From Halobacteriales archaeon QS_8_69_26 (GTDB lineage: Archaea; Halobacteriota; Halobacteria; Halobacteriales; SW-7-71-33), in assembly GCA_003023195.1 (NCBI GenBank), contig PXRX01000001.1:768-64767 (forward strand): DNA of 64,000 nt, given 5' to 3'. A model generated the notes under the pieces. The model searched no databases, was not told the DNA's origin, and saw only the letters and a list, made by a program, of their open reading frames with translations. This document shows positions 42,184 through 61,850 of this stretch, in pieces. The position numbers and the translations under genes were made by a program. The first letter of the stretch is position 1. Each line of letters opens with the position of its first letter.

Positions 42184-43875
42184 ATGCCCCGGGAGGGTGC
42201 GGCCCAGGTCGTCATCGCCCTCTTGCTCGTGGCGGCGGCACTCTCGCCGCTGGCGGTGAGCGTCGGGGAGGACGGCCGGGTCGTCGCGGGCCCCGCCGAC
42301 ACCTCCGACGTCCCGGCCGAGGTCGCACCCGACCCGGGATTCCTGGAGTGGGAGGGCCCCGGTGAGGAACGCCCGACTCAGACGGAGGTCGACACCGCCC
42401 CGTCCGCCCACGTCGACGACGAGGTGGAGGTGGTCGCGAAGATCAGGGAGAACGCCGAGGTCCCCGACAGGGTGCAACGCCAGTACGGCGACGTCTACAC
42501 CCGGGAGGGCGCGCGCCGCCTGGCGGGGACCGTCCCCCTCACGGCGGTCCGCGAACTCTCGGAGGAACCGGGCATCGAGGGCGTGCGGATCAAGGCCGAC
42601 CCCGGGATGGACGACGGCACGGGCCGACGCTCGCCCGGCCTCGACGACATCGGTGCCACGGAACTCCACGACCGCGAGGTCGACGGTGAGGGGGTCGTCG
42701 TGGGCGTCATCGACAGCGGCTTCCAGCTGAGCCACCCCTCGATCGCGAACAACGTCGGGGCCTACAACTCGTTCTCGGGAACCTCCTCGCCGCAGCACGG
42801 CACGGCAGTCGCCAGCGTCGTCGCCGACACAGCGCCGGCGGCGGAACTCCACCTGGCGGCGATCGGCCCCTCGACGTCGGTCGAGGAGTACCGCGCCGCC
42901 GTCACGTGGCTCCGGGAGTCCGGTGCCGACGTCATCGTCGACGCCGGGAGCTACTTCGGCCAGCCCGGGGACGGGAGCGGGACGATCGCCGCGGTGGCCA
43001 GCAACGCCTCCGAGGACGTCGCGTTCGTGACCTCGGCGGGGAACTACGCCGAGCGTCACTGGTCTTCGACCCACTACCCGTCGAACGACTCGAAGTACGT
43101 CGACGTCACCCCGGACGCCGAGGGGAACCACCTCGGCGTCGGGGAACGGGTCGAGGGCCGGATCGAACTGGGCCTCACCTGGAACGGGACCGGGGACTAC
43201 GACCTCTACCTGATGCGGGACACCCGCGGCGGCGACATGGCGGTCGCGTCCTCCGCCTGGGAGTCCGAAAACGAGGGAGCGCGCGAACAGCTATCGGCGG
43301 TCGTCCCGGAGGGCCGGTACTACGTCGCCATCCACCCCAACGAGAGCAACCCGCCGGCCGGGCCCACGAGCCTCGAACTCTTCTCGAACCGCGACCTGGA
43401 CTACCGGACTCCGGAGGGAAGCATCACCGCGCCCGCCTCCGCCGAGGGCGTCGTCGCGGTCGGTGCCTACGCCAACGGGAGCGTCGAGTCGTTCTCCTCG
43501 CGTGGACCGCTCGACGACGACCGCCGGGGGGTCGACGTCGTTGCCCCCGACGGCGTCCGGGTCGACGGCGTCGAGGCGGTGGGTGGCACCTCCTTCGCCG
43601 CCCCGTACGTCGCCGGGACGGTCGCACTCCTGAAGGCGGAGTTCCCGGACCTCTCGACCGAGGAGATAGAGGCCATCGTCCGACTGAGCGCCGTCGACGT
43701 GGCTGCCGACGGTCCCGACCCGACTACCGGCCACGGCCTCGTCGACGCCGAGGCCGCCTACGAGACGGCACTGAGCACGACCGACGACGCCGACGACTCC
43801 GGCGACGACTCCGACGACGACACCGAGAACGGGGAGGACGACGGGTCGTCGTCGCCCGAACGGCCAGGCCACTGA
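42184..43875 (+). CDS. Secreted S8 (subtilisin/halolysin-like) serine peptidase
   Basis: 563 aa with an N-terminal signal/anchor. The catalytic Asp lies in VVVGVIDSGF, His in HGTAVASVV and Ser in GGTSFAAPYVAG. The C-terminal tail is acidic. Confidence 0.88.
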   Translation: MPREGAAQVVIALLLVAAALSPLAVSVGEDGRVVAGPADTSDVPAEVAPDPGFLEWEGPGEERPTQTEVDTAPSAHVDDEVEVVAKIRENAEVPDRVQRQYGDVYTREGARRLAGTVPLTAVRELSEEPGIEGVRIKADPGMDDGTGRRSPGLDDIGATELHDREVDGEGVVVGVIDSGFQLSHPSIANNVGAYNSFSGTSSPQHGTAVASVVADTAPAAELHLAAIGPSTSVEEYRAAVTWLRESGADVIVDAGSYFGQPGDGSGTIAAVASNASEDVAFVTSAGNYAERHWSSTHYPSNDSKYVDVTPDAEGNHLGVGERVEGRIELGLTWNGTGDYDLYLMRDTRGGDMAVASSAWESENEGAREQLSAVVPEGRYYVAIHPNESNPPAGPTSLELFSNRDLDYRTPEGSITAPASAEGVVAVGAYANGSVESFSSRGPLDDDRRGVDVVAPDGVRVDGVEAVGGTSFAAPYVAGTVALLKAEFPDLSTEEIEAIVRLSAVDVAADGPDPTTGHGLVDAEAAYETALSTTDDADDSGDDSDDDTENGEDDGSSSPERPGH

Positions 43876-49703: not shown

Positions 49704-50816
49704 ATGGGGCTCGAAGAGGAGATCGAGGAGATCCGCGAGGAGATCCGTACCACGCCCTACAACAAGTCGACCGAGCAGCACATCGGCCGGCTGAAGGCCA
49801 AGCTCGCGGAGAAGAAGGAGGAACTGGAGCGCCGGCAGGCCTCCTCGGGCGGCGGCGGTGGCTACGCGGTCGAGAAGACCGGCGACGCCACCGTCGCGAT
49901 GGTGGGCTTTCCCAGCGTCGGCAAGTCCACCCTGCTGAACGCCCTGACGAACGCCGACAGCGAGGTCGGGGCCTACGAGTTCACGACGCTGGACGTCAAT
50001 CCCGGGATGCTCAAGTACAACGGGGCGAACATCCAGATCCTCGACGTGCCGGGGCTGATCGAGGGTGCGGCCTCGGGACGGGGGGACGGGAAGGCCGTGC
50101 TGTCGGTGGTGCGCTCGGCCGACCTGGTCCTGATGCTCCTCTCGCCCTACGAGATAGAGCAGTACGACCGGCTCCGGGAGGAACTGTACGACAACAAGGT
50201 CCGGCTGGACGCCGAGCCGCCACGGATCTCGGTGGCCCGGAAGGGGAAGGGCGGACTCGACGTCACCGCGTCCGTCGACCTGGATCTGGAGGAGGACACC
50301 ATCACGGAGGTGCTCCGGGAGCACGGCTACGTCAACGCCGACGTGACCATCGGGGAGCAGGTCGGGGTCGACAGGCTCATCGACGGGGTGATGGACAACC
50401 GCGAGTACATCCCCTCCATCGTCGCGGTCAACAAGGCCGACCTGCTCGACGAGGCGTACCTCGACACGCTCTACGAGGGGCTCAGGGAGCGGGACCTCGA
50501 CCCGGAGGAAGTGACGTTCATCAGCGCCGAGCAGGGGAAGGGGCTGGACGCCCTCACGGAACGGCTCTGGGACGCCCTCGGGCTGATCCGCGTGTACATG
50601 GAGAAGCCGGGGCGCGGAGTCGACTACGAGGAGCCGCTCGTCCTGGAGGAGGGGGCCACCGTCGACGACGCGTGCCGGAAACTCGGCGGTGACTTCGAGG
50701 AACGGTTCCGGTTCGCCCGCGTGTCCGGCCCGAGTGCCAAGCACGACCGCCAGCAGGTCGGCACCGACCACGAACTGGCCGACGAGGACGTCCTCCGGCT
50801 GGTGTTACGCAGGTGA
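49704..50816 (+). CDS. DRG-family OBG-like GTPase with C-terminal TGS domain
   Basis: 370 aa. G1 is GFPSVGKST, G3 is DVPGLIEGA and G4 is NKAD. A TGS-like C-terminus (..IRVYMEKPG....PLVL..GATVDDAC.KL) is present. Confidence 0.9.
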   Translation: MGLEEEIEEIREEIRTTPYNKSTEQHIGRLKAKLAEKKEELERRQASSGGGGGYAVEKTGDATVAMVGFPSVGKSTLLNALTNADSEVGAYEFTTLDVNPGMLKYNGANIQILDVPGLIEGAASGRGDGKAVLSVVRSADLVLMLLSPYEIEQYDRLREELYDNKVRLDAEPPRISVARKGKGGLDVTASVDLDLEEDTITEVLREHGYVNADVTIGEQVGVDRLIDGVMDNREYIPSIVAVNKADLLDEAYLDTLYEGLRERDLDPEEVTFISAEQGKGLDALTERLWDALGLIRVYMEKPGRGVDYEEPLVLEEGATVDDACRKLGGDFEERFRFARVSGPSAKHDRQQVGTDHELADEDVLRLVLRR

Positions 50817-51289
50817 CCGGCCCCGGCGACGACCGGTCCGAGCGGAGTGGCGATAGGGCCGACGACGCGGCTGGCGACCCTCGGTCCCTCCTGGTGGTCG
50901 TCCTCGCCCTCCTCCCGTGGACCGTCGTCGTCCACCCGGGGGGCGTCGACCTGGTGTTCGGGTGGGGACTGGTCAACACGAACCCCCTCGGCGTCGTCGA
51001 CCTCCCGTCGTACCTGTTCGTCTACACGCCCGGTCCCCGGAGCCTCCCGTCGAGGCTGGTCGCCTGGCCCGGGTCGACCGCGCTGTTCGTGCTCGCCGTC
51101 GCCAGTGCGTCCCTGGGGGTCGTCGGCCGCGAGGACCGCCGGGTCACCGCCGCGTTGCTCGCACTGGCGGGACTGGTCCACCTCCGGGTGGCGCTCGGAC
51201 TGGTCCGGGTCGGCGGCACCGCCCTGCCGGTCGGGTCCGCGCTGATGCTCGGGACGGCCTGGTGGGTCCTCGGCCGGCCGGCGCAGTGA
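50813..51289 (+). CDS. Polytopic membrane protein, hypothetical, translationally coupled to the DRG GTPase gene
   Basis: The GTG start overlaps the DRG stop (GTGA at 50813-50816). 158 aa with four hydrophobic helices. Confidence 0.6.
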   Translation: MTGPGDDRSERSGDRADDAAGDPRSLLVVVLALLPWTVVVHPGGVDLVFGWGLVNTNPLGVVDLPSYLFVYTPGPRSLPSRLVAWPGSTALFVLAVASASLGVVGREDRRVTAALLALAGLVHLRVALGLVRVGGTALPVGSALMLGTAWWVLGRPAQ

Positions 51290-51804: not shown

Positions 51805-54800
51805 ATGAATATGACGACTGAAACACGCAAGAAGATCAAGTCACTGTTCCTGTCGTGGCTGATGGTCATGTCGGTAACTGCGGGCGTAGCGGCCTTCTCC
51901 GGTGGCGCCGGCGCGGCGCCGTCGGACGGCCTGTCCGCGGCGGACCCCGTCGCGTCCAGCGTGGACGACGGCGGCGTCACCGCGGCCTCGCTGTCCCCGC
52001 CATCGGGCGTCGGCTCTGACGATACGCCCTCGGACACCGTCGTCCCCGGCGAGCGGACGACGGTCGCCGACGTCACGTTCTCGACCTCAGGCAACGTGAG
52101 TAGCGTCTCCGTCAATCTCGCGGCCGGTACCGAAGCGGCGAACATCACGGCGGACGACGTCGACAACGTCAACGTCACGCTGTTCAGCGACACCTCCGGT
52201 GAGCTGGCGTCCAGCGGTGACGTGAGCTACGACGCCCTGGTGACGACGGTCGACTTCAGCAACGACAGCGCTGCCGTCGCCGGCAACGTTACCGGCGTCG
52301 ACAGGGTCGTGATCCGGGCCGAGACCAACGAGTTCAACGCCGAGAACGGCGACGTCATCGACGCCGCGTTCAATACCACGGACGCCGCCGGCGACGACGC
52401 TTCGTTCAGCACTGCCGAGAACCAGACCATCGAGACCGACACCGACGCTCGGCTCCGTGGCGAGGTCGTCTGGCAGAACGGTTCGCCCGCCGACAACGTC
52501 ACGATCCAGATCGTCGACACGGACACGGGCAACGTCCTGATCGACGACATCGTGACGAACGGCTTCGACACGAACCAGCCCGGCGTCTGGTCCCCCCAGA
52601 CCCGCTCGCCCGGCAACTACACGGTCGAGCTCGACGACACCGGGGGGACGGTGAGCGGCCTCCTCGGTTCGGTCCAGGTCTTCTCGACGCGCGTCGAACT
52701 CGAGCGTGGCGAGACGGAGAAGATAGAAACCGTCCTCGACCCGCTCGAACAGGTCGGCCCCCTCGAATGTGAGGGCGTCGTCGCCTTCGCGGGCGAGGAA
52801 GGGACCCTCACCATCACTGCAGAGAACGAGGAGAACAGCCTCCTCCAGGGCGCTTCGGTCCAGGCCGTCGGCAAGGACGGCTCCGAAGCGGTGACCCTGC
52901 TCAACAACGTCACCAAGACGACGGACGCGAACGGGCAGGTCACCTACAACGCGACCGCCAACATCACCGCCTCGGCGACGTTCACCTTCGAGGTCTCCAG
53001 CGGTGGCGACACCGGGACCGTCGAGTGTAGCGCGGTCTTCGTCCAGAACGGCGAGGGCCAGATCACCGGCGACGTGCGCGACGAGGCGACGACCGACCCC
53101 ATCGAGGACGCCCGCGTCTGGGCGGTCCTCGCGAGTAGCTACGTCCAGAACGAGCGCTACACCCGGATCAACCTCTCCGCGGTGTACGACAACCTCGGCG
53201 TGACCGGCGACAACCGGGACGACGTCGTCTGGATCCGCCTGGTCGACAGTGACACCGGCGAGATCGTCGACAACGACGACTACGACGTCCGCAACGAGGA
53301 GTTCAACCGGACCAACGACGGCAACACGAGCGTGACCGCGGGCGAGGGCGGATTCAACCCCGAGAACGACACCGGCGTCCGGCTCGTCGAGGACTTCAAC
53401 GTCACGAACGCCAGCGAGGGCGAGGGCTTCGCGGTCGTCGACCTCGACGGTGACGGCCTGGTGGCGTTCAACCACACCCGCATCGCGCCCGAGGACTACT
53501 ACGTGCAGATCTCGCTGGACGCGCCCAACGCCTCGCGCAACGACGGCGTCGACCGGCAGAAGCAACAGCTCCCCGAGGACGACGACCAGGTCACCCAGCC
53601 CTGGCCCGGCGACGAGTGGCGGAACGTCACGAGCGTCGACGCCAACGGCACGGTGACCTCCAGTACGGCTGCTGCCACCTCGAGTCCGGTCGGGAGTGGC
53701 AGCATCGTCGCGGAGTTCGAGCCGCCGGCGAACCTGACCATGGCCCAGACCGCGCGTCTGGCCGACCTGGCGGACTCGAACCTGGTGGACGCGCCCGGCT
53801 TCGAGAACAGCTGGGGCGAGAACACCGCCGGGACCGACGTGAACGGTGACTTCGAGCTGAGCAAGCTCTTCACCAACTTCCAGGACGGCCGCGCGTACGT
53901 GGTCATCGCCGAGAAGGCCGGCTACTCGACGGACTTCCACGACGCGTTCGTCCGCGAGGACGGTACCCTCCGGCTCGGCGACAGCGAGGAGGTCGAGTCG
54001 TTCAACCTCCTGCCCGAGCCGCCCGAGCCCGGCCAGGTGAACATCACCCAGGTCGGGACCCACCCGGACGCGGCGTTCAACGAGAGCCTCGTCACCCGGT
54101 TCGACGAGGTCAACGAGAACCCCGGTGACGACATCTTCCAGCGGATCCCCCGTGACGGGCGGACCATCGACGTCATCCAGGTGACGACCAAGACCGAGGA
54201 CGGCAGCCTGGAAGTCGGTGGGAACGTCACGGTGACCTTCGACGAGTACCCCGGCGAGGACCCGTTCTCGCCGACGGTCGTCGGCGTGGTCAACGGCACG
54301 TTCGAGAGCCAGACCGGGCCCAGCGGGAACAGCATCAAGATCAACACCGGCGACGGCGTCGAGAACGGCACGGCGCTGCTGCTGGTCCAGACGGACCTGG
54401 ACTCCGAGAGTTCGCGCGTCAACAAGACCGCCGAACTCGAGGCCGACCCCTCGCGGGACCACTCGAACGCCACGTTCGTCGGCGTCATCCAGTTCCGGGA
54501 GGCATCCATCTCCGGGAAGGTGACCGACACCGACGACGACCGCATCGAGGACGCGGCGGTGTGGGCCAACCAGTTCTCGTTCGGCCCGAACTTCGCAGTG
54601 CGCATCCGGCCCACTGCGGGTGACAACGCGGACGCGGTTGACGAGGACTCGGACACGTTCAACGTGACGATCTACCGCGACGTGGACGCCGACATCGACC
54701 TGGAGCCCCAGGAGAGCGCCATCGTGACGGCGGGAGGACTGCGCTCGTTCACGTTCTCGCAATTCGACTCGATCGACAACGTGAACAACACGCAGTTCCG

Positions 54801-55482
54801 GCTGTACGACCGGACCGAGGACACGCAGGGGTCGTACACGCTGGACCCGGTGCCGGCGGTGAACAACTCGTTCGTGGAGACGGACTACCGGATCCGCGGG
54901 ATCAAGCTCGACGAGCCCAACAAGGACGAAGTGTCCAACGACGGGCTGGCGTCGGTCTTCCCGCTGACGACCGACGACGCCAACGTCGTGATCCCGATCA
55001 ACATCACGCAGTCGAACTTCGAGGTGTCGAACCTGTCGGCCCCGTCCGCGGCGAGCCCCGGTGACAACATCACCGTGACCGCCGACGTCACCAACACTGG
55101 CGGGCTGGACAGCCAGGAGGTCGTCTTCCGGCTGGACGCCAACCAGAACGGTGACTTCACGGACTCGGCTGACGTCGAGCTGTCGGCCGGGACGGTGCAG
55201 CTGGACAACGGCGAGACCAAGCAGGTGTCCGTCGAGGTGACGGTGCCGGACGTGAACGGCACGTTCGAGCACGGCCTGTTCAGCGAGGACACCGCCGCGA
55301 CCGACACCATCGAGATCAGCAGTGACGGCGGAAACGGGACCGTCGTCGAGCAGTACGACGCGAACGACGACGGCGACATCAGCACCGACGAGCTGAACGC
55401 CGCCATCCAGGACTGGGGTGCCGGCGACCTGGAGACCGACGAGCTCAACCAGGTCATCCAGGCCTGGGCGGCCAGCAGCTAA
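51805..55482 (+). CDS. Giant secreted glycoprotein (1225 aa) with a CARDB-like module and a C-terminal dockerin/EF-hand-like motif, and no membrane anchor
   Basis: The signal peptide is MNMTTETRKKIKSLFLSWLMVMSVTAGVAAFSGGAGA. I counted about 40 N-x-S/T sequons by hand. A penultimate CARDB-like domain (PGDNITVTADVTNTGG...) is present. The last 42 aa are YDANDDGDISTDELNAAIQDWGAGDLETDELNQVIQAWAASS. There is no PGF-CTERM or terminal TM helix. Confidence 0.85.
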   Translation: MNMTTETRKKIKSLFLSWLMVMSVTAGVAAFSGGAGAAPSDGLSAADPVASSVDDGGVTAASLSPPSGVGSDDTPSDTVVPGERTTVADVTFSTSGNVSSVSVNLAAGTEAANITADDVDNVNVTLFSDTSGELASSGDVSYDALVTTVDFSNDSAAVAGNVTGVDRVVIRAETNEFNAENGDVIDAAFNTTDAAGDDASFSTAENQTIETDTDARLRGEVVWQNGSPADNVTIQIVDTDTGNVLIDDIVTNGFDTNQPGVWSPQTRSPGNYTVELDDTGGTVSGLLGSVQVFSTRVELERGETEKIETVLDPLEQVGPLECEGVVAFAGEEGTLTITAENEENSLLQGASVQAVGKDGSEAVTLLNNVTKTTDANGQVTYNATANITASATFTFEVSSGGDTGTVECSAVFVQNGEGQITGDVRDEATTDPIEDARVWAVLASSYVQNERYTRINLSAVYDNLGVTGDNRDDVVWIRLVDSDTGEIVDNDDYDVRNEEFNRTNDGNTSVTAGEGGFNPENDTGVRLVEDFNVTNASEGEGFAVVDLDGDGLVAFNHTRIAPEDYYVQISLDAPNASRNDGVDRQKQQLPEDDDQVTQPWPGDEWRNVTSVDANGTVTSSTAAATSSPVGSGSIVAEFEPPANLTMAQTARLADLADSNLVDAPGFENSWGENTAGTDVNGDFELSKLFTNFQDGRAYVVIAEKAGYSTDFHDAFVREDGTLRLGDSEEVESFNLLPEPPEPGQVNITQVGTHPDAAFNESLVTRFDEVNENPGDDIFQRIPRDGRTIDVIQVTTKTEDGSLEVGGNVTVTFDEYPGEDPFSPTVVGVVNGTFESQTGPSGNSIKINTGDGVENGTALLLVQTDLDSESSRVNKTAELEADPSRDHSNATFVGVIQFREASISGKVTDTDDDRIEDAAVWANQFSFGPNFAVRIRPTAGDNADAVDEDSDTFNVTIYRDVDADIDLEPQESAIVTAGGLRSFTFSQFDSIDNVNNTQFRLYDRTEDTQGSYTLDPVPAVNNSFVETDYRIRGIKLDEPNKDEVSNDGLASVFPLTTDDANVVIPINITQSNFEVSNLSAPSAASPGDNITVTADVTNTGGLDSQEVVFRLDANQNGDFTDSADVELSAGTVQLDNGETKQVSVEVTVPDVNGTFEHGLFSEDTAATDTIEISSDGGNGTVVEQYDANDDGDISTDELNAAIQDWGAGDLETDELNQVIQAWAASS

Positions 55483-55535: not shown

Positions 55536-55552
55536 TCTTCCATTTATTTTTC
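55536..55552 (+). terminator. Oligo-T tract downstream of the giant glycoprotein gene
   Basis: cttcttccatttatttttc lies 55-70 nt after the stop codon. Archaeal intrinsic terminators are oligo-T runs. There is no experimental support here. Confidence 0.4.
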
Positions 55553-55997: not shown

Positions 55998-58900
55998 ATG
56001 ACAGGGATACAGACAGACAAGCTACGTAGCGTATTCCTCGCTGCGCTGATGGTGTTGTCGGTTGCTGCTGTCGCCTCGCCGGCGGCGGCCCAGCCGATCG
56101 ATTCTGCCGACCGGACGGTTGACCAGACGGAGGTCAACGCCGGCGGCAGTACGACGGTAACACTGACGGTCGAAGTCGGGGAAGACGCAGACTCAATCTC
56201 GATCCAGGATTCGTTCGATCCTGAGTTCGCCGAGGTATCGAATCTGAACGTGGAGTTCCAGAACGGTGACGGCAGCACGGTGTTCACTAACGCGGAAAAC
56301 GGTAGTGTGACCGTCGCTGCGTCGGCCGACGCGGGCACGACTATCGTCGTGACCTACGACGTCACCGTGGTCGACGAGGCGCCCGCCACCCACACGATTT
56401 CCGGTGAGGTCGTCTCCGGTGACCAGACGGTGACGCCGACCGGCGACACCGAGGTTAACGTCGTCGAGCAGGTCGGCCCGTCGATCACGTTCGACGGCCA
56501 GACCAGCGCCGGCAGTAGCGTCAACGTCGCCAGCTACAACCTCGGCGACAATGGCTCGACCGTCGCCGTCTGGTCGACCGACGACGCGGGTAACCCCGAC
56601 GAGGTCCTGGGCTCGGTTAGCCCCTCCTCGTCGAGCGGTAGCCTGAACGTCGCGCTGAACCAGCAGATCAGCGGCACCCAGACCCTGGTCGCGGCCGTCC
56701 ACAGCGGCGACACTTCGACTGAAATCCTCGCCAGTGACACCGCCGAGGTGACCGTCGAGACTCCGCCCGGTGACGCGGAAGTCGTCGACGGCGGGACCTT
56801 CTTCGTCGGTCAGGTCCTCTACACGAACGCGTACGACACGGGCGACCAGGTCGTCCTCCGTGACGGCGACGGTACCTTCCAGAGTGACGTGCCCGTCGAA
56901 GACGGGACCGTCACGCTGCGTACCGCCAACCGTAACGAGGGCATCTTCCAGCTGACCAGCCCGACCGGTCCGACCATCGAGTTCGAACTGGTCGAGCAGG
57001 ACTACGACATCTCGCCGAGTGAGGTGGAGGTCACGAACGAGGGCGACGGTGCTGCCGCCGAGATCACCGTCGCGTCCAACCGCGGCACGTACACCCACGT
57101 GCTCTCCTCGGAGAGCCTCAGTGCCTCGGACCTCCAGAGCGTGCTGGGCACCGGTACGATCGGCCCCGAGGGCGAGACGCTCCTCGTCTCCGGGACTGTC
57201 GACCAGACGCTCGCCGCAGACTTCACCGGCGTCCCCGCCGGCGACTACCAGATCGACTTCGGCGTCACCGACACGACGGCCAGCGACACCGTCAACGTCT
57301 CCGTCGAGGCGGCCGCTCCCGGCCAGGTGACGTTCGACTCCGACACGAAGGTCATCCAGGAGCAGCTGGGCGACCGGGCGCGGATCCCGCTCAGCTTCCA
57401 GAACTCCGACACTGCCCAGCTCGAGCTCGGCAGTGACGACCTGCGCTGGCGCGTCTCGCTGACGGTCACCGACGCGGACGACGACGGCTCCGCGACGGTG
57501 CTCGTCAACACGGACAACATCCGCCAGACCGGGACCGTGTTCGCCGCCGCTGGCGACGACACGGTCTCGAACGTCGAGGTCCTGACGGGCGGGCAGTTCA
57601 CGAGCCCCGACCGCAGGATCGCCGCGACCGCCTACCCGATGAGCGTGTCCGTCAACGGTGACGAGACCGACGTCGCCACGCTCTCGCTGCAGGACCCGTC
57701 CCAGGTCGAGCGCTCGCTCAGCGTCTCGCGCGCCCGGGCCGGGCTCTCGTTCGAGGACGCGCTCGCCAACCAGGAGGAATCCAGCACCGTCGCATCGAGC
57801 GACTGGGTGGTCATGGAACTCCAGGCCGCGGGCATCTTCGGTTACATCGGTGAGGACGCCGCTGCGGACCTCGCCGCGGGCGAGGACGGCGTCTCGCTGA
57901 GCATCAGCGAGACCTCGCTCGATCGCAACGAGGAAGGCGACAGCGTCGACCCGTCGGTCTTCGTGACCAGCGTCGACGAGGCGAGCAACACGATCACGCT
58001 GGCCGCCAAGGTCAACGAGGCTAACGGCTTCGAGATCGGCGAGACCTACCGCGCCACCTTCCAGGTCGCGGAGGCCAACCCCTACGTCGACGCGGCGGTG
58101 ACGCGCTCGGTCCAGTTCACGACCGCGCCGCGTGCCGTCTCGATCGACTTCGCGGGCGACCGGCTCCGCGTCCAGCAGGCGGCCAGCCAGACCATCTCCG
58201 GTAGCACCACGATGGCGACCGGCACGCAGGTGACGGTCACCATCCGGTCGACCGGTGAGAGCGTCGAGGGCGGTCAGCCCTTCCTCCGCTCGAAGACCAC
58301 GACGGTCCAGAACGGTGCCTGGAGCGTCGACTTCGACTTCGGAGACATCCCGCCCGGCCAGACCTTCACCGTGGCCGTGCGGTCCGCGGGTGCCAGTGAC
58401 GACGCTGCGGGCGTCGTCACCCAGGCCGCCTCCGTCTCGATGAGCAGCCAGATCTCCCAGAACGGTCAGGTCCTGCTCGTGGACAGCGTCTTCCTGCCCA
58501 ACGCCGGGTTCGTGACCATCCACGACGAGACCCTCCAAGACGGTGAGACTCTGGGCAGCGTCCTGGGCACCTCGCGGTACCTGCCGCCGGGCTCCCACGA
58601 GGACGTCCGCGTGACCCTCGACGAACCGATCGAGGAGACGCAGAACGTCATCGCCATGGCCCACCAGGACACCAACGGTAACGCCGTCTACGACTTCGTC
58701 GACCAGGAAGGCGGCGCAGACGGGCCGTACACCCTGGGTGGCGAGGCCGTGACGGACGACGCCCAGGTCCAGATCCCGACGGAGGAGACGCCGACGGCCA
58801 CGCCGACGGCCACGCCGACCGACACCCCGACCGACACGCCGACGGCCACGCCGACGGCCACGCCGACCGAGACCCCGACCGAGACCCCGACCGAGACCCC

Positions 58901-59006
58901 GACCGACGGGGACGGCGACGGTGACGGTGCGCCCGGCTTCGGCCTCGGCATCGCAGTCCTCGCGCTGCTGGCTGCTGCGCTGCTGGCAGCCCGCCGCCGC
59001 GAGTAA
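55998..59006 (+). CDS. PGF-CTERM-anchored surface (S-layer-like) glycoprotein, 1002 aa
   Basis: Start re-picked at ATG 55998 (MTGIQTDKLRSVFLAALMVLSVAAVASPAAAQP). The C-terminus has a Thr/Pro-rich linker (PTATPTATPTDTPTDTPTATPTATPTETPTETPTETPT) followed by DGDGDGDGAPGFGLGIAVLALLAAALLAARRRE. This is the PGF motif, a hydrophobic helix and a basic tail. I found only about 3 N-glycosylation sequons. Confidence 0.88.
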   Translation: MTGIQTDKLRSVFLAALMVLSVAAVASPAAAQPIDSADRTVDQTEVNAGGSTTVTLTVEVGEDADSISIQDSFDPEFAEVSNLNVEFQNGDGSTVFTNAENGSVTVAASADAGTTIVVTYDVTVVDEAPATHTISGEVVSGDQTVTPTGDTEVNVVEQVGPSITFDGQTSAGSSVNVASYNLGDNGSTVAVWSTDDAGNPDEVLGSVSPSSSSGSLNVALNQQISGTQTLVAAVHSGDTSTEILASDTAEVTVETPPGDAEVVDGGTFFVGQVLYTNAYDTGDQVVLRDGDGTFQSDVPVEDGTVTLRTANRNEGIFQLTSPTGPTIEFELVEQDYDISPSEVEVTNEGDGAAAEITVASNRGTYTHVLSSESLSASDLQSVLGTGTIGPEGETLLVSGTVDQTLAADFTGVPAGDYQIDFGVTDTTASDTVNVSVEAAAPGQVTFDSDTKVIQEQLGDRARIPLSFQNSDTAQLELGSDDLRWRVSLTVTDADDDGSATVLVNTDNIRQTGTVFAAAGDDTVSNVEVLTGGQFTSPDRRIAATAYPMSVSVNGDETDVATLSLQDPSQVERSLSVSRARAGLSFEDALANQEESSTVASSDWVVMELQAAGIFGYIGEDAAADLAAGEDGVSLSISETSLDRNEEGDSVDPSVFVTSVDEASNTITLAAKVNEANGFEIGETYRATFQVAEANPYVDAAVTRSVQFTTAPRAVSIDFAGDRLRVQQAASQTISGSTTMATGTQVTVTIRSTGESVEGGQPFLRSKTTTVQNGAWSVDFDFGDIPPGQTFTVAVRSAGASDDAAGVVTQAASVSMSSQISQNGQVLLVDSVFLPNAGFVTIHDETLQDGETLGSVLGTSRYLPPGSHEDVRVTLDEPIEETQNVIAMAHQDTNGNAVYDFVDQEGGADGPYTLGGEAVTDDAQVQIPTEETPTATPTATPTDTPTDTPTATPTATPTETPTETPTETPTDGDGDGDGAPGFGLGIAVLALLAAALLAARRRE

Positions 59007-59134: not shown

Positions 59135-60733
59135 GTGTCCGACCGACGCAGTTTCCCGTGGGCGGCGCTATCCCGCCGGTTCGGGGTCGACCCACGCGCC
59201 CTGGCGACCCTGCGGGTCGCGGTCGGAACGTTGATCCTCGCCGATCTCGCGCTCCGTTCGCAGAGCCTCGTTGCGTTCTACACCGACGCCGGGGTGTTGC
59301 CCAGGGCGGCCCTGCGCGACTCGTACCCGGGGATCGCGCGGCTCTCCCTGCACGCCCTCTCGGGATCCCTCGCGTTCGAGGCGGCACTGTTCGCGGTCGC
59401 CGGGGTCGCCGCGGTGGCGCTGGCCGCCGGCTACCGGACCCGGCTCGCGACGGTCCTCTCGCTGGTGCTGCTGGCGTCGCTCCACGCCCGCAATCCACTG
59501 GTCCTGAACGCGGGCGACGCCGTGCTCCGGCGGTTGCTCCTGTGGGGTGCGTTCCTCCCGCTGGGCGAGGTGTGGTCGGTGGACGCGCTCCGGGGACGGA
59601 CGTCCAACGGTCGCGTGCGGGCGGACGGCTCCGGGGACCCGGACGGTGACGCCGATCCGGACGGACGGTGGACGGAGCGGCGCGTGGCGACCCTGGCCTC
59701 GGCGGGACTGCTCTGTCAGGTGGTCGTCGTCTACCTCGCCAACGCGGTCTTCAAGCTCGGGTCGGACGCCTGGACCGAGGGCGTCGCGCTCCGGTACGTG
59801 TTCGGGCTGGACCGGATCACCGTCGGTCCGGGCGACGCCCTGGCCGGGCACCCCGAGTTGCTGGCCGTGCTGGGGGTCGCATGGCTCGCGTTGCTCGTTT
59901 CCTCGGTCGGTCTGGTGGCCCTGACCGGGCGGGCCCGGACGGCCCTCGTGTGCCTCTTCGCCGGCGCCCACCTGGCGATGGCGCTGACCATGGCCCTCGG
60001 CCTGTTCCCGCTCGTCTCGGTCGCCGCCCTGCTCCCCTTTCTGCCGCCGGCGGTCTGGGACCGGGCAGAGCGGGTGGGCCGACGGCTCCGGTCCCGGGCG
60101 AACGGGGAACTCCCCGGCGCGCCCCGCCTCGGTCGGCTGGTCGACCGCCTGGCGACGGGTGACGGACCGCGGGTGCGACAGGCGCGCGCCCCGGACCCGA
60201 CGCCCGGACCGACCGATCGATACGGGCCAGCCCTCGACCGGTGGCGGGGACGGATCGCCAGGGCAGTCGTCGCCGTCCTCCTGGTCTCGATGCTCCTCTG
60301 GAACGGGGCGACGCTCGGGTACGTCGACGCCCCGGACGCGGTCGAGGCGACCGTCGACCCGGAGGAGCGGCGATGGGACATGTTCGCCGAACCCTGGCGG
60401 TACGGCGGGTGGTACGTCGCGTCCGCCGAGACGGCGTCCGGACGGGAGGTGGACGCCATGTACGGTGGGAGCGTCGACTGGGACCGCCCGCCGGAGGTGG
60501 CCGAGGCGTACCCCACACACCGGTGGCGGATGTACCTGGTCGACCTCCTGCGGTCCGGAAACGCCGACCTGCGTCCCCACCTCGCCGCCTACCTCTGCCG
60601 GGACTGGAACGGGAGTCACGAGGAGGGACTACGGTCGGTCTCGCTGTACTTCGTCGAACTGCACACCCGGTTCGACGGACCCGACGAGGCCCGGCGCCGA
60701 CACCTCCTCGACCACCGGTGTTCGGGGCGATAG
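59135..60733 (+). CDS. HTTM domain (vitamin K-dependent gamma-carboxylase-like) integral membrane protein
   Basis: 532 aa with a GTG start. The N-terminal ~300 aa match the HTTM pattern as I remember it: DPRALATLRVAVGTLILADLALR, FYTDAGVLP, RNPLVLNAGDAVLRRLLLWGAFLPLGEVWSVDAL, plus further TM helices. The C-terminal ~200 aa are soluble. Confidence 0.78.
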   Translation: MSDRRSFPWAALSRRFGVDPRALATLRVAVGTLILADLALRSQSLVAFYTDAGVLPRAALRDSYPGIARLSLHALSGSLAFEAALFAVAGVAAVALAAGYRTRLATVLSLVLLASLHARNPLVLNAGDAVLRRLLLWGAFLPLGEVWSVDALRGRTSNGRVRADGSGDPDGDADPDGRWTERRVATLASAGLLCQVVVVYLANAVFKLGSDAWTEGVALRYVFGLDRITVGPGDALAGHPELLAVLGVAWLALLVSSVGLVALTGRARTALVCLFAGAHLAMALTMALGLFPLVSVAALLPFLPPAVWDRAERVGRRLRSRANGELPGAPRLGRLVDRLATGDGPRVRQARAPDPTPGPTDRYGPALDRWRGRIARAVVAVLLVSMLLWNGATLGYVDAPDAVEATVDPEERRWDMFAEPWRYGGWYVASAETASGREVDAMYGGSVDWDRPPEVAEAYPTHRWRMYLVDLLRSGNADLRPHLAAYLCRDWNGSHEEGLRSVSLYFVELHTRFDGPDEARRRHLLDHRCSGR

Positions 60734-60827: not shown

Positions 60828-61850
60828 ATGGTCCGGCCGGACCTACGGTCGGTCGTGCCCGACCCACTGACGACCGGGATCGAACTCCTGGCCGCCCTCG
60901 GGGAGGCGTCGGACCCCCTCGCCTGGGTGGTCGTCGCCGTCTTCCTGGCCGCCGCGGTCCTGGAGGCCGACGACCGGCCCTGGGCCCGCCACGTGGCCGT
61001 CGGTGCCTGGGTGCTGTTCGGGGTCTTCTGGCTGACGCTGATCCACCACTTCGCGTTCGTCCAGAAGAGCCTCGTCGAGGGAGTCCTGACGGTCGTGGCG
61101 GTGCCGGCCTGCCTGTCGGCGGGCGCCCTGCTCTGGCGGGGCCGGGACTCGCTGTTCGTGCTCACCCGGTCGGTCGCCGTGATGGGCCTCATCGTGTTGC
61201 CCTTCGAGGCCGTCCCGTTCCTCAGACGGACCCTCATCGAGACGGTGACCGCCCAGACGGAACTGCTGATCAACCTGCTAGGCTACCACCCCGAGGTCGT
61301 CGCCGGGACGACCATCGAGGGCTGGGGGATCCCCGCCAAGGAGTACCCCTACCACAGCACGTTCCTGTTCTACAGCGAGAGCGGGGACCCGCTCACGCTG
61401 ACGATCAAGCTGGCGTGTACCGGGCTCGGCTCCATCGCCATCTTCGCGGGACTGATCGCCGCCGTCGACGCGCCACTCTCCCGGAAGCTCCGGGCGTTCG
61501 CCGTGTCGGTGCCGGTCATCTACGGGTTGAACCTCGTGCGCAACGTCTTCATCGCGGTCGGCTTCGGCACCCAGCAACTCCACGTCTTCCCCGACCTGGT
61601 GATGACGCTGTTCGCCGTCGAGAGCAGGGTGATGGTCTCGTACTACGTCGCGGACCGGATGATCGCACAGACCCTGTCCGTGTTCGTGCTGGTGGGGATC
61701 ACGTGGCTGGTCGTCCGACAGCTCCCGGAGGTCCTCACCGTCGTCGAGGACGCCCTCTACGTGCTCACCCGCACCGAGTACGACCTGGAGGGGGCGATGG
61801 GTGCGCCCGAGGTACGCGCCGACGGCGGCCCCGACCGCGGGGACGATTGA
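60828..61850 (+). CDS. artA: Archaeosortase A (PGF-CTERM-specific exosortase-family transpeptidase)
   Basis: 340 aa and polytopic. The conserved Cys motif is TIKLACTGLGSIAIFAGLIAAV and the Arg motif is YGLNLVRNVFIAV. A downstream conserved region (..SYYVADRMIAQT..) is present, and the overall layout is that of exosortase/archaeosortase proteins. Confidence 0.8.
   Translation: MVRPDLRSVVPDPLTTGIELLAALGEASDPLAWVVVAVFLAAAVLEADDRPWARHVAVGAWVLFGVFWLTLIHHFAFVQKSLVEGVLTVVAVPACLSAGALLWRGRDSLFVLTRSVAVMGLIVLPFEAVPFLRRTLIETVTAQTELLINLLGYHPEVVAGTTIEGWGIPAKEYPYHSTFLFYSESGDPLTLTIKLACTGLGSIAIFAGLIAAVDAPLSRKLRAFAVSVPVIYGLNLVRNVFIAVGFGTQQLHVFPDLVMTLFAVESRVMVSYYVADRMIAQTLSVFVLVGITWLVVRQLPEVLTVVEDALYVLTRTEYDLEGAMGAPEVRADGGPDRGDD

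What the first reader, a model, noticed from the sequence alone, without database searches (positions are those of the whole stretch)
55354..55479. Dockerin/EF-hand-like C-terminal module on a protein that lacks any anchor
The last 42 aa are YDANDDGDISTDELNAAIQDWGAGDLETDELNQVIQAWAASS. They contain one canonical DxNxDGxIxxxE calcium-binding loop followed by two copies of an (S/E)TDELNxxIQxW helix. This resembles the duplicated segment structure of type I dockerins, and a CARDB-like module sits directly upstream. The protein has a signal peptide but no PGF-CTERM, lipobox or TM tail, so it would need a partner to stay on the cell. The neighbouring PGF-CTERM protein is an obvious candidate receptor.
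Basis: partly seen in the sequence, partly recalled or inferred. Interest (0 to 1): 0.55.

Follow-up and report, generated by a model that had tools for sequence, protein, structure and literature searches.

The report
EF-hand-derived C-terminal docking tag
The last 42 residues of a large secreted haloarchaeal glycoprotein form a small calcium-loop-plus-two-helix module that is not a true dockerin but belongs to a widespread, uncurated family of C-terminal tags on secreted proteins, and it may hold anchorless proteins on the cell surface.

Summary
Codons 55354-55479 encode YDANDDGDISTDELNAAIQDWGAGDLETDELNQVIQAWAASS. It has one canonical EF-hand loop and a tandem 17-codon duplication (55371-55421 / 55422-55472, 75% DNA identity). 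The host is a 1225-aa signal-peptide protein with no anchor.

It is not a dockerin. There is no Dockerin_1 hit, only one Ca loop, 42 aa rather than about 60-70, and no dockerin in sequence or fold searches. In Halorhabdus tiamatea, classical dockerins and this tail occur on different proteins.

By profile it is EF-hand-derived. AF2 gives a confident helix-loop-helix-turn-helix mini-domain (pLDDT 96) on a flexible linker. The module family is large and has no curated model of its own. It sits 2-5 residues from the C-terminus of unrelated secreted proteins in haloarchaea, Archaeoglobales, Methanococcoides and above all Dehalococcoidia. Tails are more alike within a genome than between genomes.

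The tailed protein is followed by a PGF-CTERM surface glycoprotein in five lineages. That glycoprotein is homologous in four of them. In three the pair lies beside archaeosortase A. An S8 protease with the same tail is adjacent in three.

Best reading: a docking tag recognised by a genome-specific partner. The neighbour is a candidate receptor, but this is unproven. No cohesin was detected.

The parts
51805..55482 (+). Gene for the 1225-aa secreted, acidic, sequon-rich glycoprotein that carries the tail (BRD00_00250)
   Evidence: ORF with GC3 0.94 and pI 4.1. 100% identical to P0001. 40 N-x-S/T sequons; the only hydrophobic segment is at aa 13-32. CarboxypepD_reg-like (below cut-off) and CARDB domains; homologues carry Big_1.
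51832..51918 (+). Haloarchaeal surface-glycoprotein-type signal peptide (aa 10-38)
   Evidence: TIGR04207 halo_sig_pep, 28 bits against a cut-off of 24.6. No lipobox and no RR motif.
55015..55317 (+). Last Ig-like (CARDB) beta-sandwich domain, directly before the tail
   Evidence: PF07705, 25.1 bits against 22.7, aa 1071-1148. AF2 models 7 strands at model residues 32-131, which are aa 1072-1171.
55318..55341 (+). Flexible Ser/Gly linker SSDGGNGT between CARDB and the tail
   Evidence: pLDDT is below 50 at model residues 135-138 and about 55 for that block.
55342..55356 (+). Short entering helix VVEQY (aa 1180-1184)
   Evidence: AF2 helix 140-144 in model m08f040b58a53 and helix 3-7 in the tail-only model.
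55357..55392 (+). Canonical 12-residue EF-hand Ca2+ loop DANDDGDISTDE (aa 1185-1196)
   Evidence: Fits the PS00018-type pattern. Pfam EF-hand_6/5/7/1 align here. PDB EF-hand proteins align here.
55371..55421 (+). Repeat copy 1 (17 codons, GDISTDELNAAIQDWGA): distal half of the loop plus helix 1
   Evidence: Direct-repeat family D1. Helix 154-165 = aa 1194-1205.
55422..55472 (+). Repeat copy 2 (17 codons, GDLETDELNQVIQAWAA): truncated pseudo-loop plus helix 2
   Evidence: 75% DNA identity to copy 1. Helix 171-184 = aa 1211-1224. It lacks loop positions 1-5, so there is no second canonical Ca site.
55543..55551 (+). Oligo-T run TTTATTTTT about 60 nt after the stop codon; possible archaeal terminator (inference)
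   Evidence: Read from the sequence. The spacer to the next gene is 515 bp.
55998..59006 (+). Neighbouring PGF-CTERM surface glycoprotein (S-layer-glycoprotein superfamily); candidate receptor
   Evidence: Domain hits: TIGR04207, TIGR04126 PGF_CTERM, BGTF surface domain NF045517, DUF7282 x2, DUF7827 and a weak NF041335 S-layer glycoprotein match. Homologues in other loci: L005 (42% identity), L117 (39%) and L119/P0161 (25%), each directly after the tailed protein. No cohesin hit.
58920..59000 (+). PGF-CTERM sorting signal of the neighbour (aa 975-1001)
   Evidence: TIGR04126, 32.4 bits against 24.5. Hydrophobic segment at aa 976-1000.
59135..60733 (+). HTTM-domain polytopic membrane protein between the glycoprotein gene and artA
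   Evidence: PF05090, 32.1 bits against 27.7. Orthologue at the same position in L005 (52% identity).
60828..61850 (+). Archaeosortase A (ArtA), the enzyme that processes PGF-CTERM proteins
   Evidence: TIGR04125, 327 bits against 75. Orthologues follow the pair in L117 (63% identity) and L005 (60%).
50813..51289 (+). TIGR04206 'near_ArtA' membrane protein; marks the other edge of the locus
   Evidence: 122.9 bits against 90. Orthologues in L005 and L118.

Best explanation
What it is: the tail is an independently folding mini-domain of about 45 residues, derived from an EF-hand and attached to the last CARDB domain by a flexible Ser/Gly linker. Its order is a short entering helix, one complete Ca2+ loop (DANDDGDISTDE), helix 1, a 5-residue turn that is the remnant of a second loop, and helix 2. 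The core is a tandem duplication of a 17-residue unit, made of loop positions 6-12 plus the exiting helix.

Where it belongs: it is a member of a large family of C-terminal modules that has no curated model of its own. These modules are carried by unrelated secreted proteins in organisms such as haloarchaea, Archaeoglobales, Methanococcoides and Dehalococcoidia.

Proposed mechanism (inferred, not shown):
1. The glycoprotein is exported through Sec and its signal peptide is removed. It has no covalent or membrane anchor.
2. The two amphipathic helices of the tag, held in place in this protein by one Ca2+, bind non-covalently to a partner that is common to all tag carriers of the genome.
3. This keeps the protein, and in related genomes an S8 protease with the same tag, on the envelope.

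Receptor: the most economical candidate is the ArtA-processed PGF-CTERM S-layer-type glycoprotein encoded directly downstream. In that sense the tail would work like a dockerin without being one and without a cohesin.
For: Shown:
- Sequence, one canonical loop and the 17-codon duplication.
- Confident fold: tail-only AF2 model has pLDDT 95.8 and pTM 0.77, with helices at residues 3-7, 17-29 and 34-47. The same fold appears in the CARDB context after a low-confidence linker.
- EF-hand relationship.
- Family size and position: 40 of the top 152 profile hits carry the whole module, and 21 of those lie within 12 aa of the C-terminus. In GTDB genomes, 100 of 116 untruncated matches end within 11 aa of the stop codon.
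- Carriers are unrelated secreted proteins: PQQ propellers, FG-GAP, S8 proteases, LRR, cadherin/He_PIG, Big_2 and CARDB.
- Uniformity within genomes: P0004 and the adjacent S8 protease P0116 share 62% identity in the tail but 30% elsewhere. Orthologues from different genomes share 24-41% in the tail. In the GTDB set, module identity is 0.69 within genomes and 0.44 between genomes for pairs whose upstream regions are unrelated. The H. tiamatea S8 protease and the target's homologue both use FQDVLDVI.AYN helices.
- Conserved neighbourhood: the tailed protein is directly followed by a PGF-CTERM surface glycoprotein in the window, L005, L117, L002 and H. tiamatea L119. ArtA lies next to the pair in three of these. 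A tailed S8 protease is adjacent in three.
- A minimal Tat-signal+tail protein lies beside PGF-CTERM PQQ proteins on a Natronosalvus plasmid.
Against: - No binding partner has been shown. No multimer prediction or experiment was possible.
- No cohesin-like profile was found in any neighbour.
- In L002 the downstream PGF-CTERM protein is not detectably homologous to the window's neighbour.
- Halostella has the glycoprotein homologue without a tailed protein.
- Another tail carrier, P0150, has no PGF-CTERM neighbour on the side that is assembled; the gene lies at the very start of its contig, so its upstream side is unknown.
- The two genes are separated by 515 bp with an oligo-T run, so they are probably not co-transcribed.
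- The Ca loop is missing or degenerate in 7 of 14 haloarchaeal-type tails. Ca2+ therefore cannot be essential to the family's function.
- Within-genome similarity could partly reflect recent domain shuffling or paralogy. The GTDB statistic is dominated by one genome and its pairs are not independent.
- The 1,678 profile hits include ordinary multi-EF-hand proteins.
Confidence: 0.42

Rival explanations
1. Structural role only. The tail is a Ca2+-stabilised cap that helps the last Ig-like domain, or the whole protein, to fold and stay stable in saturated brine. It has no binding partner.
For: One canonical EF-hand loop. The tail is very acidic, with 11 D/E and no K/R. No receptor domain was detected.
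Against: The tail is separated from CARDB by a low-confidence flexible linker and folds confidently on its own. The Ca loop is lost in homologues and paralogues while the helices are kept. The same module ends totally unrelated proteins and is more uniform within genomes than between them, which a passive cap would not require. A 124-aa protein consists of little more than a signal peptide and the tail.
Confidence: 0.18
2. Sorting or processing signal. The tag is recognised by an enzyme or export-maturation machine and is then cleaved or modified, by analogy with other C-terminal sorting signals. Candidates are the adjacent S8 protease, the HTTM protein or an unknown factor.
For: The module ends 2-5 residues from the stop codon in most cases. 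It is more uniform within genomes than between them, which is also typical of sorting signals. The locus holds ArtA, an HTTM membrane protein and, in relatives, an S8 protease.
Against: It has no hydrophobic or TM element, unlike the known archaeosortase/exosortase signals. Some proteins carry 2-3 copies or internal copies. In L002, L005 and L119 the S8 proteases themselves carry the tag. HTTM is absent from the L117, L002 and L119 clusters.
Confidence: 0.15
3. Self-association module. Tags bind each other (homo- or hetero-oligomerisation), so that tag-bearing proteins of one genome co-assemble into a surface or extracellular complex without a separate receptor.
For: A single complete EF-hand usually needs a partner hand (established knowledge of EF-hand pairing). 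The module has two amphipathic helices with conserved aromatic ends. Within-genome uniformity would let different carriers cross-associate. Tandem copies exist.
Against: The monomer model is already compact and very confident, and the truncated second repeat can supply the paired half internally. There is no evidence of oligomers. Self-association alone would not retain the proteins on the cell.
Confidence: 0.15
4. A true but divergent type I dockerin that binds a cohesin domain encoded elsewhere in the genome.
For: It has a loop-helix duplication and a C-terminal position on secreted proteins. P0005, a distant homologue, ends in a two-loop module scoring 20.9 bits on Dockerin_1 against a cut-off of 22.9. 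Archaeal cohesin-dockerin pairs are known to be functional (PMC9012536).
Against: There is no Dockerin_1 hit on this tail or on any of about 20 family members scanned. It has one Ca loop and 42 aa. No dockerin appears in the PDB sequence or fold hits. It co-exists with classical dockerins as a separate class in H. tiamatea. No cohesin was found in the neighbours.
Confidence: 0.05

Closest known systems
Type I dockerin (Pfam PF00404) of cellulosomal and non-cellulosomal systems
   Same: It is a member of the EF-hand clan built from a duplicated loop-helix segment. It is usually C-terminal and appended to many unrelated secreted proteins. Its sequence is more uniform within a genome than between genomes. 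A Ca2+ loop precedes an amphipathic helix that ends in an aromatic residue and Gly.
   Different: It has one complete Ca loop rather than two. The repeat unit is 17 residues rather than about 22. The total is about 42-48 aa rather than 60-70, and there is no linker helix. It has Glu (EF-hand type) at loop position 12. There is no Dockerin_1 HMM match. No cohesin was detected. In H. tiamatea it occurs alongside classical dockerins as a separate class.
Canonical EF-hand (Pfam EF-hand_1/5/6/7; PROSITE PS00018)
   Same: The 12-residue loop DxNxDGxIxxxE has a hydrophobic residue at position 8 and is flanked by helices. EF-hand models are the only profile hits, and a family profile retrieves calmodulin-like proteins.
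   Different: It is extracellular and sits at the extreme C-terminus. The entering helix is reduced to about 5 residues. The second hand is truncated to half a loop. The loop is dispensable in many family members. For this tail the match is below Pfam's cut-offs.
SlaA/SlaB two-component S-layer of Sulfolobales (comparison from general knowledge)
   Same: A large anchorless, heavily glycosylated secreted protein is encoded directly upstream of a smaller membrane-anchored partner. The H. tiamatea partner even has a long coiled coil before its anchor.
   Different: There is no sequence relationship. Here the anchor is a PGF-CTERM/ArtA lipid anchor rather than a TM helix. The attachment mode is unknown, and whether the tailed protein forms a lattice is unknown.
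PGF-CTERM / archaeosortase A sorting
   Same: It lies in the same locus (artA, near_ArtA and a PGF-CTERM substrate) and addresses the same problem of keeping a secreted glycoprotein on a wall-less archaeal cell.
   Different: The target has no PGF motif, no C-terminal TM segment and no TIGR04126 hit. Any attachment would be non-covalent.

Membership tests
Type I dockerin (PF00404) | Match to the Dockerin_1 profile at or above the gathering score | tested here: not met
   No Dockerin_1 hit at E<=10 on the tail or the whole protein. No hit on 17 other carriers. Only the distant homologue P0005 comes close (20.9 bits against 22.9).
Type I dockerin (PF00404) | Two EF-hand-like Ca2+-binding loops in two duplicated segments (loop-helix-helix-loop-helix; PMC12484212) | tested here: not met
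   There is one PS00018-type loop. The second repeat lacks loop positions 1-5. AF2 gives helix-loop-helix-turn-helix over 48 aa.
Type I dockerin (PF00404) | Structural similarity to solved dockerins | tested here: inconclusive
   Foldseek of the tail-only model against the PDB gave no hit with E<1 and no dockerin in the top 50. The weak top hits are EF-hand proteins.
Type I dockerin (PF00404) | A cognate cohesin domain | tested here: inconclusive
   There is no Cohesin (PF00963) hit in the neighbour, its homologues or other secreted proteins of the window. The rest of the genome could not be searched.
Type I dockerin (PF00404) | C-terminal module shared by many unrelated secreted proteins and conserved within a genome | tested here: met
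   position and carriers; within-genome similarity.
EF-hand (Pfam clan EF_hand; PROSITE PS00018) | Canonical 12-residue loop with ligands at positions 1, 3, 5, 12, Gly at 6 and a hydrophobic residue at 8 | tested here: met
   DANDDGDISTDEL matches the pattern (pattern recalled from memory). It is the only such loop in the six frames of the window.
EF-hand (Pfam clan EF_hand; PROSITE PS00018) | Profile match at or above the gathering score | tested here: not met
   The best score is EF-hand_6 at 21.5 bits against 25. The threshold is passed in family members P0033, P0034 and P0093. The family profile hits PDB EF-hand proteins at E 3e-10.
EF-hand (Pfam clan EF_hand; PROSITE PS00018) | Helix-loop-helix, normally in pairs | tested here: inconclusive
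   AF2 shows a 5-residue entering helix, the loop and a 13-residue exiting helix. The second hand is reduced to a turn plus a helix.
EF-hand (Pfam clan EF_hand; PROSITE PS00018) | Binds Ca2+ | not testable with these tools
   Needs ITC, a 45Ca overlay or a structure.
PGF-CTERM / ArtA substrate | C-terminal PGF motif, TM helix and basic tail | tested here: not met
   The target has no TIGR04126 or PF18204 hit and no C-terminal hydrophobic segment. The feature is met for the neighbour.
Haloarchaeal S-layer glycoprotein superfamily (applies to the neighbour only) | NF041335 equivalog score | tested here: not met
   The score is 125.9 bits against a cut-off of 1100. The neighbour is a related superfamily member (BGTF domain, 66.5 bits against 40) but not the equivalog. 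Haloferax S-layer glycoprotein P0163 is 32% identical over 40% of the neighbour.

The most novel reading that the evidence does not exclude
A cohesin-independent surface-docking system. A duplicated 17-residue 'half-EF-hand' tag at the C-terminus tethers anchorless secreted proteins (large glycoproteins, S8 proteases, propeller and LRR proteins) to a genome-specific receptor. In this haloarchaeal clade the receptor would be the ArtA-lipidated S-layer-type glycoprotein encoded next door, giving a two-component envelope reminiscent of SlaA/SlaB. The same tag would be used across distant lineages, including Dehalococcoidia, Archaeoglobales and Methanococcoides.
Probability: 0.2. Interest if true: 0.8.

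Novelty: new variant of a known kind. Interest (0 to 1): 0.55.

Why it matters
Haloarchaea have no cell wall, and the only well-understood ways to keep proteins on their surface are TM segments, lipoboxes and ArtA/PGF-CTERM lipidation. How anchorless secreted proteins, including proteases, stay cell-associated is an open question.

A small, portable and possibly Ca2+-dependent docking tag would explain this. It would also define a new curated family for annotation, because thousands of proteins currently get only sub-threshold 'EF-hand' hits. It could give a compact tag of about 45 aa for surface display in halophiles.

The family's abundance in Dehalococcoidia suggests a broader principle. 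Cultured organisms that carry the system (Halorhabdus tiamatea, Natronosalvus amylolyticus) make the idea directly testable.

Tried and rejected
- Tail-only query in the word-indexed protein database found no candidates, not even the protein itself.
- tblastn of the tail against plasmids gave one weak hit at E=1. On inspection this turned out to be a real family member.
With the four closest tails (A4), 49 stretches matched the pattern but none was confirmed by tblastn.
- Foldseek with the CARDB+tail model returned only Fn3-like domains of GH3 enzymes and said nothing about the tail.
It was replaced by A6.
- My visual impression that the N-termini of the two Archaeoglobales carriers (L103, L063) are cohesins was not supported by Pfam or by PDB sequence search. 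I dropped it.
- A similar impression for the neighbour's N-terminal domain was also not supported. It scores weakly as DUF7927/DUF11/CARDB-like.
- The Peer et al. 2009 survey of non-cellulosomal dockerins is not held.
- The H. tiamatea proteogenomics paper mentions neither dockerins nor surface proteins.
- Literature searches found no description of this module.
- The GTDB pattern scan requires a canonical loop and exact spacing. It therefore misses the loop-less haloarchaeal variants, and the absence of named haloarchaea in that list means nothing.
Full report
1. THE OBSERVATION

The window has 69.4% GC. It matches a metagenome-assembled genome, Halobacteriales archaeon QS_8_69_26: the ORF 51805-55482 is 100% identical to hypothetical protein BRD00_00250.

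Codons 55354-55479 translate exactly to YDANDDGDISTDELNAAIQDWGAGDLETDELNQVIQAWAASS followed by a stop codon. DANDDGDISTDEL fits the PROSITE-type EF-hand loop pattern, which I wrote from memory. The repeated helix is a tandem duplication of 17 codons that is visible in the DNA: 55371-55421 (GDISTDELNAAIQDWGA) and 55422-55472 (GDLETDELNQVIQAWAA), 75% identical.

A degenerate 111-nt pattern for the whole loop-helix-turn-helix architecture matches once in the window and in none of 100 shuffles. The motif is unique in the six reading frames of the window.

- A CARDB domain lies directly upstream (25.1 bits against a cut-off of 22.7).
- There is a haloarchaeal surface-glycoprotein signal peptide (TIGR04207).
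- There is no lipobox, no twin-arginine motif and no second hydrophobic segment.
- The downstream protein carries a PGF-CTERM.

2. WHAT THE TAIL IS

Profile searches:
- Pfam gives only EF-hand models, all below their cut-offs (best is EF-hand_6, 21.5 bits against 25). There is no Dockerin_1 hit even at E<=10.
- NCBIfam has nothing relevant.
- phmmer against PDB sequences returns only EF-hand proteins, with E no better than 1e-3.

Homologues: the four homologues found (P0002-P0005, 29-42% identical over the whole proteins) all end in a comparable loop-helix-loop/turn-helix tail. The module is therefore conserved.

Structure prediction:
- AF2 on the last 185 aa gives a 7-strand sandwich, a low-confidence Ser/Gly linker and then a confident tail with pLDDT 77-90.
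- The tail alone, with a 24-sequence alignment, gives pLDDT 95.8 and pTM 0.77. It has a short helix (residues 3-7), the loop (8-16), a helix (17-29), a 4-residue turn and a helix (34-47).
- Foldseek of this model against the PDB finds nothing with E<1. The weak top matches are EF-hand proteins (centrin, EFhd1/2, S100), and no dockerin is in the top 50.

Interpretation: the tail is one complete EF-hand whose exiting half has been duplicated. The second repeat keeps loop positions 6-12 but lacks positions 1-5, so there is one canonical Ca2+ site and not two.

3. A LARGE FAMILY WITH NO CURATED MODEL OF ITS OWN

Exhaustive profile search: an hmmsearch with the four tails against 1.84 billion representative proteins gave 1,678 hits at E<=1e-3. 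Many of these are ordinary multi-EF-hand proteins that match only the loop. However, 40 of the top 152 proteins contain the complete module, and 21 of those have it within 12 residues of the C-terminus. Some are almost the same tail, for example P0150 (…FDADGNGKISTEELNAAIQAWATGDLSTADLNLVIQAWATSG).

Carriers are unrelated extracellular architectures: PQQ propellers, FG-GAP repeats, S8+CARDB, Big_2, cadherin/He_PIG and DUF7927. In P0033, P0034 and P0093 the module passes Pfam's EF-hand thresholds. Dockerin_1 never matches. A 16-sequence family profile retrieves calmodulin-like proteins from the PDB at E 3e-10 to 4e-7, and no dockerin is in the top 60.

Scan of the species-representative genomes with the degenerate DNA pattern: there were 121 matches in 109 stretches from 57 genomes. 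Most are Dehalococcoidia, with up to 18 matches in one genome. Others come from Bipolaricaulota, Archaeoglobales, Methanococcoides, a Thermotogae MAG and a few more. Of 116 matches that are not cut at the 3' end, 100 end within 11 residues of the stop codon, mostly 2-5 residues. The carriers include S8 proteases with fn3, LRR proteins and CARDB arrays. Many members show the internal duplication very clearly, for example IDIGELFEAIDDYF-AGV-IDIGELFELIDIYF.

I found no description of this module in the searchable literature. That is absence from that library and not proof of novelty.

4. NOT A DOCKERIN

A type I dockerin has two EF-hand-like Ca2+ sites in a loop-helix-helix-loop-helix arrangement and binds a cohesin (PMC12484212). 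The tail fails the profile test, the two-loop test and the length test.

In Halorhabdus tiamatea (complete genome HF571520.1) both kinds of module occur side by side:
- Two GH10 xylanases end in classical two-loop dockerins (…DVDGDGKRSIADVRSLL…DFTGDGSVDAGDVLALFRKF).
- The adjacent S8 protease ends in …RFDQNEPAGEIGFQDVLDAIGAYNEG…VTFQDVLDVIGAYNSGS.
- The next protein ends in DVTFQDVLGVITDYNNDDASFQDVLDVITAYNNS.

That last tail aligns without gaps to the window's GDISTDELNAAIQDWGAGDLETDELNQVIQAWAASS but has no Ca loop at all. Only 7 of 14 haloarchaeal-type tails have a canonical loop. The conserved core is therefore the duplicated helix unit, and Ca2+ binding is an optional feature that this particular protein has kept.

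5. CONTEXT

Window locus:
- DRG-type GTPase, 49704-50816.
- TIGR04206 'near_ArtA' protein, 50813-51289.
- Tailed glycoprotein, 51805-55482.
- PGF-CTERM glycoprotein, 55998-59006. It carries two DUF7282 domains, a DUF7827, a BGTF surface domain and a weak full-length match to the ArtA-dependent S-layer glycoprotein model.
- HTTM membrane protein, 59135-60733.
- Archaeosortase A, 60828-61850 (327 bits).

Related loci:
- L005 (P0002) has the same order, including the GTPase (82% identical), near_ArtA (60%), HTTM (52%) and ArtA (60%). It also has a divergently oriented S8 protease whose C-terminus is a loop-less tail of this family.
- L117 (P0003) has the tailed protein, the homologous glycoprotein (39% identity over 716 aa) and ArtA (63%).
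- L002 (P0004) has a tailed S8+CARDB protease (P0116), the tailed protein and then a different PGF-CTERM protein.
- H. tiamatea has S8+CARDB (tailed), then an 865-aa homologue of the target (28% identity over 440 aa, E 3e-18, tailed), then the BGTF/PGF-CTERM glycoprotein P0161 only 22 bp downstream. P0161 has a long coiled coil before its anchor.

Exceptions:
- Halostella has the glycoprotein beside the GTPase and near_ArtA genes but has no tailed protein.
- P0150, another tail carrier, has no PGF-CTERM neighbour on the assembled side. The gene is at the start of its contig, so its upstream side is unknown.

No cohesin profile matches any of these neighbours. In the window, the 515-bp spacer with an oligo-T run after the target's stop codon suggests that the two genes are transcribed separately. 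This is an inference.

6. UNIFORMITY WITHIN GENOMES

P0004 and the adjacent protease P0116 are paralogues over about 470 aa at 30% identity, yet their tails are 62% identical. Orthologues from different genomes share 25-33% outside the tail and 24-41% in the tail.

The H. tiamatea protease and the target's homologue share the FQDVLDVI.AYN helices.

In the GTDB set I took pairs whose upstream 142 aa show no BLAST similarity. Modules from the same genome are 69% identical on average (n=61), against 44% between genomes (n=3,724; Mann-Whitney p about 1e-33). There are caveats. One genome contributes many of the within-genome pairs, the pairs are not independent, and the search pattern itself fixes about a third of the positions.

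This pattern is expected if all tags of a genome are read by one common, co-evolving partner. That partner could be a receptor, as with dockerins, or an enzyme, as with sorting signals.

7. MECHANISM

Most likely (confidence about 0.4): the tail is a docking tag. After Sec export the anchorless, sequon-rich glycoprotein (40 N-x-S/T sites against 3 in the neighbour) is held on the envelope because the tag's two amphipathic helices bind a genome-specific partner. In this protein the tag is rigidified by one Ca2+.

What is shown: the sequence, the fold prediction, the EF-hand relationship, the C-terminal modular distribution, the within-genome similarity and the synteny.

What is inferred: Ca2+ binding, any protein-protein binding, and the identity of the partner. 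The neighbouring ArtA substrate is the best candidate (about 0.25 overall) because of its adjacency in five lineages and the co-located tailed S8 proteases. That evidence is circumstantial.

Rivals are a purely structural Ca2+ cap, a sorting or processing signal, a self-association module, and a true dockerin. Each is given in the rivals section with its evidence and the result that would refute it.

8. COMPARISON, NOVELTY AND VERDICT

The tail works most like a dockerin: a C-terminal, portable module with genome-specific sequence. It is not a member of that family. By descent it is an EF-hand variant, with one complete hand plus a duplicated exiting half. The locus architecture loosely recalls SlaA/SlaB of Sulfolobales.

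I classify it as a new variant of a known kind and score its interest at 0.55. The dockerin label was not, and the receptor proposal remains open. Cultured organisms that carry the system (Halorhabdus tiamatea, Natronosalvus amylolyticus) make it testable.

Noticed in passing
window 59135-60733 (+): An HTTM-domain polytopic membrane protein (PF05090, with a weak SdpB-family match) sits between the PGF-CTERM glycoprotein gene and artA. It is conserved at that position in L005 (52% identity) but absent from L117, L002 and H. tiamatea. HTTM is the membrane domain of vitamin-K-dependent gamma-carboxylase, so a role in modifying a surface protein is conceivable but untested.
   Followed up: partly
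window 50813-51289 and 60828-61850: The 'near_ArtA' gene (TIGR04206/DUF8050) and artA are separated here by three inserted surface-related genes. Comparing the window with Halostella (L118), the flanking genes are kept: GTPase and DUF8050 on one side, TP_methylase and Trm5 on the other. The content between them varies, which suggests a variable 'surface island' at this locus.
   Followed up: partly
L119 1-4117 (Halorhabdus tiamatea HF571520.1): Two GH10 xylanases of a cultured haloarchaeon end in classical two-loop dockerin modules (weak precomputed Dockerin_1 hits). They lie immediately upstream of the S8 / tailed-protein / surface-glycoprotein cluster. No cohesin was seen in the 22-kb locus, and the H. 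tiamatea proteogenomics paper does not mention dockerins.
   Followed up: partly
L001 4764-5138 (Natronosalvus amylolyticus plasmid NZ_CP101160.1, RS18675): A 124-aa protein consists of a Tat signal, a Gly-rich linker and the tail module. It lies after phage-tail-like genes and between two PQQ beta-propeller proteins of about 2,000 aa, one of which ends in a PGF-CTERM.
   Followed up: partly
window 51805-55482 versus 55998-59006: The anchorless protein has 40 N-x-S/T sequons (3.3 per 100 aa). The PGF-CTERM neighbour has only 3 but carries a long (T-P-T-[ADE]) repeat and a GD repeat before its anchor. The two proteins probably carry very different glycosylation.
   Followed up: no
L002 6061-9279 (P0116) and L002 10001-13333 (P0004): The C-terminal ~470 aa of the target family (Ig-like domains, CARDB and the tail) also occur fused to an S8 protease domain. 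The target family and these proteases therefore share a common 'stalk'.
   Followed up: partly
window 6704-8956 (+): A 750-aa protein with a probable Tat signal (MQRRQFLKG…) has an N-terminal staphylococcal-nuclease/EcnA-like calcium-activated nuclease domain and a Big_7 domain. It is probably a secreted nuclease.
   Followed up: no
window 42184-43875 (+): An S8 subtilase (563 aa) lies 8 kb upstream of the target. Unlike the S8 proteases next to the target's homologues in other genomes, it has an acidic low-complexity C-terminus and no tail module.
   Followed up: no
L017, L023, L028, L044, L045, L050, L051, L061, L075, L077, L078, L090, L100 (Dehalococcoidia MAG CBDCQN01): One Dehalococcoidia genome has at least 18 pattern matches, concentrated in two chromosomal regions. 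Their tails are nearly identical, and some proteins carry the module internally, followed by hundreds of further residues.
   Followed up: no
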